DNA of 64,000 bases from Pocillopora damicornis (Eukaryota). The notes beneath the pieces are model-generated. The model was not told where the DNA came from. It worked only from the letters and a program-made list of their open reading frames with translations, and ran no database searches. The position numbers and the translations under genes were made by a program. The stretch spans positions 186,001 to 250,000 of the forward strand of contig NW_020847604.1 in NCBI RefSeq assembly GCF_003704095.1, written 5' to 3'. Positions 30,748-32,797 of this stretch are shown here, piece after piece. The first letter of the stretch is position 1. Every line of letters begins with the position of its first letter.

Positions 30748-32797
30748 ATGGCTTTGAAGTTTGGTTTCATTCTTCTCTTGGCTGGGTTTGTCGGGATTCT
30801 CAAGGTTCAAGCTGCCTCGGTTGCCATAGAGAAGGATATCTGGAATAGCCTGCGTCAAGGTGATTTTAGTGTCCGTGTCGGATTTTCTGTAGTTGAGATA
30901 ATGTTTTTCACACTATGAGGATTCGTAATGTCTCGCTTAATCTACCGGTTTTCGGTGAAGTATTGTTCTTCTTAAACATATGTATAAGTGATCTTTCCTC
31001 GACCTTGATCTTCAACTTGGTTTAATTTTCCTTTCTACCAACATGACTAGAGCGCGGAGCCAGAAAATTTTTATTTTACCGTTTTCTAAAGTCACTTACA
31101 TTCCAACGATCTATAATGTAGTAACCAACTTTTAACCAATTTTAAAATAAAAGTTTAGAAGAAAAACAATGCAACAATGTAATCAGATGTTAGATGATTG
31201 AGAAAGTTTGAAATAGTTGTAGCCGATGTCCAGTGGAAATGTTCCATATTCATGTTGGCTATTTAAGCTAACATAACATCTGCAGTAAAAAGGGTTCAGA
31301 TCACGACGATGAGGAGGGTACAAGACAAAAAAAATGTACTTTTTTCTCTTCGTATCCCAGCCTCTATCGAATAGGATATGACAAAATAAGAAGCTGTCTT
31401 AAGTTCAGAACTGGAGTGCTGGCTGCTAGTCCCAAAGGGATACACTTATAGCATAAGAAAAATATGTATCACTATCATTTTGTGTTCTCAGCTGATCAGG
31501 ACAAGAGGAACACAGACGTGGATAGTCTTGACACTGAAAATCTATCGACAGGTATTATGATTACTTATTAATATTCCTCTGACTTTTAGTTTTCATTTTT
31601 CATAAAATTCCACCTTTACTTCTTGTCTTCGGTGAATTTTTCAATGTTCGCAAATGCCCAGAGCATTTACGCAAACAATAGATGAGTTCTGGACCCAATT
31701 ATAGACTCAAAGATTGCTAGTATCCTGCCTGTATTCAGAAAAAAATGTTAAACTTTGGAATACATCATCAGAATACATAGCCAACAAATATNNNNNNNNN
31801 NNNNNCCCCCCCCCCCCCCCCCCCCCACACCATAAAAAGAAGCGATCTAGGGTTCAATTCATACCAAAGTCGCTCCTTTAGCCTAGCCGTCAAATTGATT
31901 TTAACCATCACTACTAGCAAAAATCGATAACTTATCGTGAAGATCAGATCCAATGCAATTTAATTCTCAAATCCATTCTAACTACATTCACTGTTTACAG
32001 ATGAAGATTTTAGTTATGAAGACCTTGCCTCGGATGTCGCTTTTCCGAGAAGAGCAGGTAACTCCTTTGTAATTAGGCCAAACTAACAAGCTGCATCGGC
32101 CAATCAAAAAAGAATAACATCTAAATGAACTTTTAACACCATGCGGTGTCACGCCTCCCCTGGCGCTGCCCCTCAACTACTCAATGGGTGAGAAATGACA
32201 CGTTGAGACTAAGAACATCAAAATTTCAACATATATATCACAAGTGATATACGAAATAAATCATTCATGATGTTTTATCTTCGGTGAAGAATTAAAATTT
32301 CCAAGGTAAACTGCACTTAGGCAATAAAAAGTCGAATGTAACACACAAAACCTGAAAAACGACGTCAGGCGTCTCGACCGGTCGGTTGCTATAGGAGTTC
32401 TTCTACTAACTGACCAATAAAGCCACAACAGATCCTTGCCAATACATACGCATAGTCATTGGAATACCTATAGTTACATCCTCAAGGGAAGTTTAACATA
32501 GTATTGAACTTGAAGTGAGATTTAGAACACCACCAGCAGTTTTCAGAGGTCTTCGAGACATCTTCGGGGCAAAGACTAGATAGAAGATATAACAATTATA
32601 ATAGTAACAAAGACCAGAACGATGCAAATAGTAAATGATGATTAAAATCTATTAATGTGTTCCATGCTTCAGTTTGTGCTGACGCTTTCAGTGGATTGTG
32701 CAAAATGCTTGGGAAAAATAAACAGTGTGACAAGGGTAGGCACACGAGATTCGCTATGAGGTATTGCCACGGCAGTTGCCCAGAATACTGTAAATAA
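30748..32797 (+). CDS. ShK/BgK-fold (ShKT) toxin-like prepropeptide, 98 aa
   Basis: Exons 30748-30859 (MALKFGFILLLAGFVGILKVQAASVAIEKDIWNSLRQ), 31492-31551 (ADQDKRNTDVDSLDTENLST) and 32673-32797 (VCADAFSGLCKMLGKNKQCDKGRHTRFAMRYCHGSCPEYCK*). All phase-1 GT-AG introns. Signal peptide, KR site and six-Cys domain with C-x-D. A 3'UTR intron (donor after 32801, acceptor 33338) precedes AATAAA at 33381. Confidence 0.85.

What the first reader, a model, noticed from the sequence alone, without database searches (positions are those of the whole stretch)
30748..32797. Standalone ShK/BgK-like toxin precursor with a shifted Cys frame and an R-F dyad
Seen: signal peptide, acidic propeptide with KR, and a single domain VCADAF...C-x7-C-x8-C-x12-C-x3-C-x3-C. 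Known: anemone Kv1 blockers ShK/BgK end C-x3-C-x2-C, BgK starts VCRDWF, and they use a Lys-Tyr dyad. Counting back from Cys4, this peptide has Arg-Phe where ShK has K22-Y23, plus an extra residue in the last loop. Inference: a candidate venom or neuropeptide component with different channel selectivity. The ORF track misses it because it is split over short exons.
Basis: partly seen in the sequence, partly recalled or inferred. Interest (0 to 1): 0.7.

Follow-up and report, generated by a model that had tools for sequence, protein, structure and literature searches.

The report
Coral-wide divergent ShK-like secreted peptide
A stony coral has a spliced, transcribed gene for a small, predicted secreted, positively charged peptide with a shifted ShK-like cysteine pattern shared with other stony corals; it likely works as an antimicrobial defence peptide rather than as a potassium-channel venom toxin.

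Summary
The gene is real: four coding exons plus a 3' UTR exon, with the coding joints seen in 6 to 7 of 7 RNA runs. It is already in RefSeq as an uncharacterised 117-aa Pocillopora protein. Relatives occur in Stylophora, Orbicella, Oculina and Porites. All 11 distinct mature domains keep C-x7-C at the start, C-x3-C-x3-C at the end and net charge +5 to +10. Likeness to ShK is weak: no Pfam hit, structural Z 2.1-2.5 against 5.0-6.5 for a control ShK domain. The 'R-F dyad' is poor evidence for venom. An aromatic residue sits there in 35 of 40 ordinary ShK domains of this genome, Lys in only 1 of 11 family members, and the toxin-type KT motif in none. Best reading: an undescribed family working like the coral antimicrobial peptides damicornin and AmAMP1 (0.45). 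Rivals: neuropeptide (0.3), venom blocker (0.17). Its Phe-Ala pair and short exons recall the anemone SA8 family; membership is unshown. No activity or cell-type data were obtained.

The parts
30643..30648 (+). TATAAA, possible promoter element (inferred)
   Evidence: RNA contigs begin at 30638-30696 in 5 runs, but contigs cannot show a true start
30748..30859 (+). Coding exon 1: start codon, predicted signal peptide (about residues 1-23) and start of propeptide with an invariant Trp
   Evidence: hydrophobic stretch, mean 2.93 over 11 residues from residue 8; Trp32 invariant in 11 of 11 rows; signal cleavage judged by eye, no predictor run
30860..31491 (+). Intron 1, GT..AG, phase 1
   Evidence: joint in 7 of 7 RNA runs
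31492..31551 (+). Coding exon 2 (60 nt): acidic propeptide with the conserved KR site
   Evidence: Arg43 invariant in 11 of 11 rows
31552..32000 (+). Intron 2, GT..AG, phase 1 (holds a 14-base assembly gap)
   Evidence: joint in 7 of 7 RNA runs; gap 31792-31805
32001..32057 (+). Coding exon 3 (57 nt): acidic propeptide ending in the RR site
32058..32672 (+). Intron 3, GT..AG, phase 1
   Evidence: joint in 6 of 7 RNA runs; in X1 a contig runs through it unspliced
32673..32797 (+). Coding exon 4: the six-Cys cationic domain (spacing 7-8-12-3-3) and stop codon
   Evidence: two-helix model, mean pLDDT 75.9
32802..33338 (+). Intron 4 in the 3' UTR, starting 4 nt after the stop
   Evidence: joint listed in 4 of 7 RNA runs, matching loose ends in the other 3
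33339..34416 (+). Exon 5: non-coding 3' UTR of about 1.1 kb, AATAAA at 34397
   Evidence: RNA contigs end at 34406-34416 in 3 of 3 RNA runs; AATAAA

Best explanation
This spliced Pocillopora gene encodes a 117-residue precursor that is predicted to be secreted and cut at a basic site to release a 42-residue, six-cysteine, positively charged peptide, which likely acts as an antimicrobial defence peptide at the coral surface. Shown: gene structure, transcription, conservation across stony corals, cysteine frame, charge. Inferred: the signal peptide takes it into secretory granules; the acidic propeptide (net -10 between KR and RR) masks the cationic domain until a convertase cuts at KR and RR; three disulfides hold a two-helix ShK-derived fold; the basic, amphipathic second helix binds and damages microbial membranes, as reported for damicornin and AmAMP1. 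The Phe of the Arg-Phe-Ala motif is read as the usual ShKT core aromatic, not as a channel contact. Release from neuron-like cells, as reported for AmAMP1, is compatible with this reading.
For: Same layout as damicornin: signal, acidic proregion, dibasic site, 40-residue cationic six-Cys peptide (PMC4306955, passages). Net charge from Cys1 to the end is +5 to +10 in 11 of 11 distinct mature domains; on the same Cys1-Cys6 span 9 of 11 reach +5, against 9 of 40 Pfam-ShK domains of this genome. The three coral ShK-type peptides tested in the papers read (damicornin, AmAMP1, digitiferin) are antimicrobial (PMC12496222, passages), and a survey of Acropora and Porites genomes found no ShK neurotoxins, only the antimicrobial relatives (PMC12745922, passages). 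The A. cervicornis AmAMP1 orthologue printed in that paper's Table S7 has Arg-Ile-Ala at Cys4 -6/-5/-4, by eye the same place as Arg-Phe-Ala here; Ala at -4 occurs in 9 of 11 family members and 0 of 40 ordinary ShKT domains. The mature part is not better kept than the propeptide between Pocillopora and Stylophora (63% against 74%), unlike what one expects of a receptor ligand (inference).
Against: No activity, proteomic or cell-type evidence was obtained. Neither the single-sequence search of 1.84 billion representatives nor the profile search (word-limited) returned a protein named AmAMP1 or damicornin, so kinship rests on layout and a by-eye motif. The charge of the Pocillopora peptide itself is modest (+5; +4 between Cys1 and Cys6). 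One locus in this genome, a tree that follows coral relationships, a mature domain identical in 5 of 5 Pocillopora cluster members and three silent-only variants in it fit a signalling peptide at least as well. In Nematostella most standalone ShK-like peptides examined are neuronal (bioRxiv 2020.05.28.121442, passages).
Confidence: 0.45

Rival explanations
1. It is a cysteine-rich neuropeptide or local signal, the coral counterpart of the Nematostella Class8-like (SA8) and ShK-like2/4 peptides, released from neurons to act on the coral's own channels or receptors.
For: SA8 peptides are described as having a conserved Gly, an FA dyad, often RF as dyad alternative, and 3-5 microexons (PMC10210398, passages); here FA is in 9 of 11, RF in 6 of 11, and the gene has 4 coding exons, two of 57-60 nt. 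Class8-like, ShK-like2 and ShK-like4 are neuronal. Single locus here, species-like tree, invariance within Pocillopora.
Against: First loop is 7 residues in 23 of 23 full-length records, not the 8 of motif 3 that SA8 follows. No anemone protein came up. The mature domain drops to 32-34% identity in Porites, where FA is lost and Cys3 has moved. No SA8 sequence was obtained, so the place of its FA pair is recalled, not checked.
Confidence: 0.3
2. It is a venom peptide that blocks potassium channels of prey or predators through an Arg-Phe pair standing in for the Lys-Tyr dyad.
For: Precursor layout is also that of anemone toxins. A basic plus aromatic pair at Cys4 -6/-5 is in 9 of 11 family members against 4 of 40 ordinary ShKT domains. 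The MMP23 domain, titled a potassium-channel-blocking domain in the PDB, has Arg-Leu at the same place. Asp at Cys1+2 is kept in 11 of 11. A T. stephensoni SA8 peptide is in venom and weakly blocks Kv1.2, IC50 40.8 uM (PMC10210398 section 11).
Against: The dyad is defined by a lysine (PMC8239465, passages); Lys is at that place in 1 of 11. The KT motif, reported only in toxic ShK peptides (PMC11122761, passages), is in 0 of 11. In that paper a three-residue variant of NnK-1 that carried Arg at the matching position was inactive on Kv1.3, though the three changes were not separated. No ShK neurotoxin was found in the coral survey. No gene expansion seen here.
Confidence: 0.17
3. It is a secreted matrix or mucus peptide with another job (for example symbiont or cell-surface signalling), or the conserved propeptide piece with the invariant Trp is itself an active product.
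For: Trp32 and Arg43 are invariant in 11 of 11 rows, and the propeptide is about as conserved as the mature domain.
Against: No direct evidence; conserved pro-regions are usual in toxin and defence-peptide precursors (PMC3040730, passages).
Confidence: 0.08

Closest known systems
Damicornin (Pocillopora damicornis antimicrobial peptide; seen only through reviews PMC4306955 and PMC4881601, passages)
   Same: Same genus; signal, acidic proregion, dibasic site, about 40-residue cationic peptide with six Cys.
   Different: A different gene product: damicornin is 4492 Da and amidated via a Gly signal; this one would be 42 residues, about 4710 Da, and ends in Lys with no Gly. A Porites damicornin-like hit has an 8-residue first loop, unlike the Porites members of this family.
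AmAMP1 (Acropora millepora; original paper not held, orthologue seen in PMC12745922 Table S7)
   Same: 117-aa precursor of the same layout; Arg-hydrophobic-Ala at Cys4 -6/-5/-4 (by eye).
   Different: Spacing 8-8-13-3-2 (counted by eye) against 7-8-12-3-3; not returned; no Acropora record was among the named hits.
Sea anemone 8 (SA8) family and Nematostella Class8-like neuropeptide (PMC10210398; bioRxiv 2020.05.28.121442)
   Same: FA pair, RF as dyad alternative, a Gly in the first loop in 9 of 11 minus P0013 (8 of 11), several short exons, standalone precursor.
   Different: SA8 follows motif 3 (first loop 8), is reported only from sea anemones, and is often multi-copy; no sequence-level hit here. 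Its C1-C5, C2-C6, C3-C4 pairing could not be tested.
[quoted passage not shown]
   Same: Six Cys with C-x3-C core, Asp two after Cys1, aromatic five before Cys4, two helices in the same places as a control ShKT model (6-14 and 24-34 against 7-15 and 23-32).
   Different: No Pfam ShK hit for this protein; last loop 3 instead of 2; no Lys-Tyr, no KT; structural match to ShKT structures only Z 2.1-2.5.
Aurelin (jellyfish antimicrobial ShKT peptide, PDB 2lg4)
   Same: Standalone 40-residue cationic ShKT-type antimicrobial; matched over the whole model (Z 2.1, rmsd 2.1, 33 aligned).
   Different: 12% identity; canonical 3-2 tail with KT.

Membership tests
ShKT domain (PF01549) | Score above the Pfam ShK cut-off | tested here: not met
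   0 families for the domain at E up to 10; 1 of 7 family members hits ShK at E 1.1
ShKT domain (PF01549) | Six Cys ending C-x3-C-x2-C | tested here: not met
   Last loop 3 in 23 of 23 full-length records; 2 in 39 of 40 Pfam-selected ShK domains of this genome and 3 in none (that set is biased to canonical spacing)
ShKT domain (PF01549) | Similarity to ShKT beyond the cysteines | tested here: inconclusive
   Against a profile of 40 genome ShK domains, 8 of 11 mature domains were matched or beaten by at most 5 of 200 Cys-fixed shuffles; this protein by 15 of 200, the two Porites ones by 47 and 57 (members are related, not independent). hhalign probability 22% and 9%
ShKT domain (PF01549) | ShK fold (two perpendicular helices) | tested here: inconclusive
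   Helices in the expected places; 4 of 23 rows at Z>=2 are ShKT structures, the same four that top the control, but Z 2.1-2.5 and tied with unrelated helical chains against 5.3-6.5 for the control
ShKT domain (PF01549) | Disulfides C1-C6, C2-C4, C3-C5 | not testable with these tools
Sea anemone type 1 Kv toxins (ShK, BgK) | Lys plus aromatic functional dyad on the second helix | tested here: not met
   Arg-Phe here; Lys at that place in 1 of 11; definition from PMC8239465
Sea anemone type 1 Kv toxins (ShK, BgK) | KT motif before Cys5 | tested here: not met
   0 of 11; feature from PMC11122761
Sea anemone type 1 Kv toxins (ShK, BgK) | Presence in nematocysts and Kv block | not testable with these tools
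   No cell-type or activity data; the Stylophora atlas supplement could not be searched
Coral AmAMP1/damicornin antimicrobial peptides | Prepropeptide: signal, acidic pro-region, basic cleavage site, C-terminal six-Cys peptide | tested here: met
   RR in pocilloporids, a single Arg after an acidic residue in the other corals
Coral AmAMP1/damicornin antimicrobial peptides | Cationic mature peptide of about 40 residues | tested here: met
   42 residues, pI 9.1, net +5; +5 to +10 in 11 of 11
Coral AmAMP1/damicornin antimicrobial peptides | Shared cysteine arrangement and detectable sequence kinship | tested here: inconclusive
   Spacing differs from the AmAMP1 orthologue (8-8-13-3-2 by eye); no named member returned; the defining paper was not held
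Coral AmAMP1/damicornin antimicrobial peptides | Antimicrobial activity | not testable with these tools
   needs a bench assay
Sea anemone 8 (SA8) | Motif 3 cysteine spacing (first loop 8) | tested here: not met
   First loop 7 in 23 of 23; motif from PMC3040730 and PMC10210398
Sea anemone 8 (SA8) | Conserved Gly and FA dyad | tested here: inconclusive
   FA in 9 of 11, Gly in the first loop in 8 of 11; their positions in SA8 are in a supplementary figure not seen
Sea anemone 8 (SA8) | Gene of 3-5 microexons | tested here: met
   4 coding exons of 112, 60, 57 and 125 nt plus one UTR exon; a weak feature
Sea anemone 8 (SA8) | Sequence similarity to Avd8a-e; disulfides C1-C5, C2-C6, C3-C4 | tested here: inconclusive
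   No anemone-named hit; no SA8 sequence was available for a direct comparison; disulfides untestable

The most novel reading that the evidence does not exclude
This family is the stony-coral branch of the SA8/Class8-like peptides, so far thought to be confined to sea anemones. SA8, AmAMP1/damicornin and this family would then descend from one secreted hexacoral peptide marked by a hydrophobic-Ala pair before Cys4, and the family would show a third cysteine that slides by 3-4 residues inside a loop of fixed length, perhaps with non-ShK disulfide pairing.
Probability: 0.2. Interest if true: 0.62.

Novelty: new variant of a known kind. Interest (0 to 1): 0.42.

Why it matters
Only three coral antimicrobial peptides came up in the papers read, and corals are reported to lack ShK neurotoxins. 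A conserved, expressed peptide family that Pfam misses adds a ready candidate for coral immunity or neural signalling in reef-building genera from both main coral clades. It also gives a natural series for asking how the ShK scaffold tolerates a longer last loop and a moved third cysteine, and whether antimicrobial, neural and venom uses of this scaffold share one ancestor. The value is moderate: the kind of molecule is known, the gene is already modelled, and function is untested.

Tried and rejected
Part of a larger multidomain protein: rejected; own ATG with an in-frame stop upstream, own stop, 117-aa records, and no RNA joint to neighbouring genes in 24000-40000; the 'longer' search returned only the 117-aa protein. 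It is damicornin: rejected on mass and amidation; damicornin itself was not located in this genome. Alternative first exon as in Nematostella ShK-like2: a 255-nt loose end at 30717 in one contig of one run is not in the window and maps inside a coding frame on another contig; read as a chimeric contig. Tandem paralogues: no second six-Cys match in the window, one locus by protein search, none with the Porites protein; these searches miss distant copies. PDB sequence searches gave nothing significant (best ShKT hit Nak1 at E 0.91-1.2). Foldseek found no match; that is no evidence against the fold. The Atlas gave ShK-named clusters at 0.77-0.85 and an unnamed 35-aa cluster at 0.91: leads only. 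Dropped rows: P0014 (unrelated helix-turn-helix repeat), exon-1 read-through ORFs (P0008, P0009, P0011, P0022, P0028-P0041, P0046-P0050, P0052-P0064), models without the Cys exon (P0012, P0045, P0051) and the N-extended P0003. A full-text search for six accessions of the family found 0 papers; searches for SA8 or Avd8 with coral listed no paper on this family by title or abstract start. The damicornin and AmAMP1 papers were not held, so the gene may be listed in the latter. Unseen supplements (Stylophora cell atlas, SA8 alignment) bear on cell type and SA8 membership. Contig depth was not used to rank expression.

Full report
What is there. The finding is a five-exon gene on the + strand. Coding exons are 30748-30859, 31492-31551, 32001-32057 and 32673-32797, joined by GT..AG phase-1 introns. 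The last coding exon has six Cys spaced 7-8-12-3-3 and then a stop. A loose six-Cys pattern matched only here in the window and never in 100 shuffled windows. Of 24 runs listed, 8 were laid: 7 RNA runs from 5 studies and one DNA-like run. Introns 1 and 2 are spliced in 7 of 7 RNA runs, intron 3 in 6 of 7, and none in the DNA-like run. A fourth intron (32802-33338) starts 4 nt after the stop; the UTR exon ends near 34410, after an AATAAA at 34397.

Identity. The domain is 100% identical to a 117-aa uncharacterised Pocillopora protein. Its cluster has 5 members, including RefSeq XP_027059009 of P. damicornis and a P. meandrina copy that UniRef names 'ShKT domain-containing protein'. So the gene is modelled but uncharacterised. 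The mature domain is identical in 5 of 5 members, and the three RNA variants inside it are silent. Protein searches find one locus in this genome.

Anatomy. A hydrophobic N-terminus (signal peptide judged by eye) is followed by an acidic propeptide with KR at 42-43 and RR at 74-75. The piece between them has net charge -10. Cutting after RR would give 42 residues, about 4710 Da, pI 9.1, with no amidation Gly.

Family. Searches and cluster look-ups gave relatives in Stylophora pistillata, Orbicella faveolata, Oculina patagonica, four Porites species and unnamed assemblies; none of the named hits is from Acropora or a sea anemone. The 23 full-length records with six Cys hold 11 distinct mature domains. 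All start C-x7-C, end C-x3-C-x3-C, keep Asp two after Cys1, and carry net charge +5 to +10. Cys3 slides: the two middle loops are 8/12, 9/11-13, 5/15 or 6/14, summing to 20-22. The tree of 10 precursors groups pocilloporids, other robust-type sequences and Porites as coral relationships would predict (midpoint root only), which fits single-copy orthologues.

Is it ShK-like? Weakly. Pfam gives no hit for this protein and one hit at E 1.1 among 7 members. Against a profile of 40 ShK domains from the same genome (taken from the 150 listed), 8 of 11 mature domains were reached by at most 5 of 200 Cys-fixed shuffles; this protein by 15 of 200; the Porites ones were not distinguishable. The model (pLDDT 75.9, pTM 0.43) has helices at 6-14 and 24-34, like a control ShK domain at 7-15 and 23-32. 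In the wide structure search 4 of 23 rows are ShKT structures, the same four that lead the control, but at Z 2.1-2.5, tied with unrelated helical chains, against 5.3-6.5 for the control. Either the fold deviates or the model is poorer; disulfide pairing could not be read.

The 'R-F dyad'. Arg and Phe are at Cys4 -6 and -5. An aromatic at -5 is found in 35 of 40 ordinary ShKT domains, so it is a scaffold feature. A basic residue at -6 is more special (9 of 11 against 5 of 40), but it is Lys in only 1 of 11, and KT before Cys5 is in 0 of 11. The dyad is defined by a lysine (PMC8239465, passages), KT is reported only in toxic ShK peptides (PMC11122761, passages), and BgK has its K-Y one place later, so counting from Cys4 is not exact. 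What marks the family is different: Ala at -4 (9 of 11 against 0 of 40) and basic-aromatic just before Cys4 (11 of 11; aromatic at -1 in 3 of 40).

Known relatives. Damicornin has the same layout but is 4492 Da and amidated (PMC4306955, PMC4881601, passages), so it is another gene. An AmAMP1 orthologue in Table S7 of PMC12745922 (supplement rows) is also 117 aa, with spacing 8-8-13-3-2 and Arg-Ile-Ala at -6/-5/-4, both read by eye. That paper found no ShK neurotoxins in Acropora or Porites genomes (passages). AmAMP1 is also noted as a possible neuropeptide (PMC12496222, passages). SA8 peptides have a conserved Gly, an FA dyad, often RF, and 3-5 microexons, a different disulfide pairing, and are reported only from anemones (PMC10210398, passages and sections 3 and 11). 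Their Nematostella homologue is neuronal (bioRxiv 2020.05.28.121442, section 5 and passages). But SA8 follows a motif with a first loop of 8 (PMC3040730, passages), and no SA8 sequence could be compared directly. The primary papers on damicornin and AmAMP1 were not held.

Mechanism and odds. Shown: the gene, its transcription, conservation, cysteine frame and charge. Inferred: secretion, masking by the acidic propeptide, cleavage, three disulfides, and action on microbial membranes (0.45). Neuropeptide 0.3, venom channel blocker 0.17, other 0.08; the first two can both be true. Nothing here measures activity or cell type.

Novelty. It is a new variant of a known kind, the standalone cnidarian ShK-type prepropeptide. 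Interest 0.42.

Noticed in passing
window 32675-32794 and proteins P0013, P0015, P0024: The third cysteine slides by 3-4 residues among relatives (loops 8/12, 9/11-13, 6/14, 5/15) while the Cys2-Cys4 distance stays at 20-22.
   Followed up: partly
window 30748-30859 and 31492-31551: A Trp (residue 32) and the Arg of the mid-propeptide KR are invariant in 11 of 11 aligned precursors; the short piece between signal and KR may be a sorting signal or a second peptide.
   Followed up: no
window 32001-32057: Pocillopora lacks 9 propeptide residues present in Stylophora and the other corals; only pocilloporids have a dibasic RR site, the others a single Arg after an acidic residue.
   Followed up: partly
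window 31997-32699: In run X1 a contig of depth 143.7 runs through intron 3 unspliced and no intron-3 joint is listed; possible intron retention in that sample.
   Followed up: no
window 36028-37718: Tandem array of a 17-bp unit, 99.6 copies, 82% matches; one run shows a 754-base shorter form.
   Followed up: no
window 20659-27400, minus strand: Spliced multidomain gene(s) with Ig, EGF, PAN and a weak COLFI-like domain; a perfect 72-bp fourfold repeat at 22236-22526 lies in an EGF-coding frame and may be an assembly artefact or a recent duplication.
   Followed up: no
window 27760-27880: Short high-copy repeat: depth about 100 times background in the DNA-like run, many loose ends.
   Followed up: no
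window 322-1017 (minus) and 43504-43995 (minus): A CHAT-domain exon (E 2.4e-40) and a weak SH3-domain exon (E 0.0012).
   Followed up: no
L006:1483-2043 (G000:C666): The loose end joined to this gene's 5' UTR in one X1 contig belongs to an open frame that looks ubiquitin-like by eye; read as a chimeric contig.
   Followed up: yes
proteins P0012, P0042 and P0023-P0025: Oculina has one model with and one without the Cys exon; Porites isoforms differ by one residue, probably at a splice junction.
   Followed up: no
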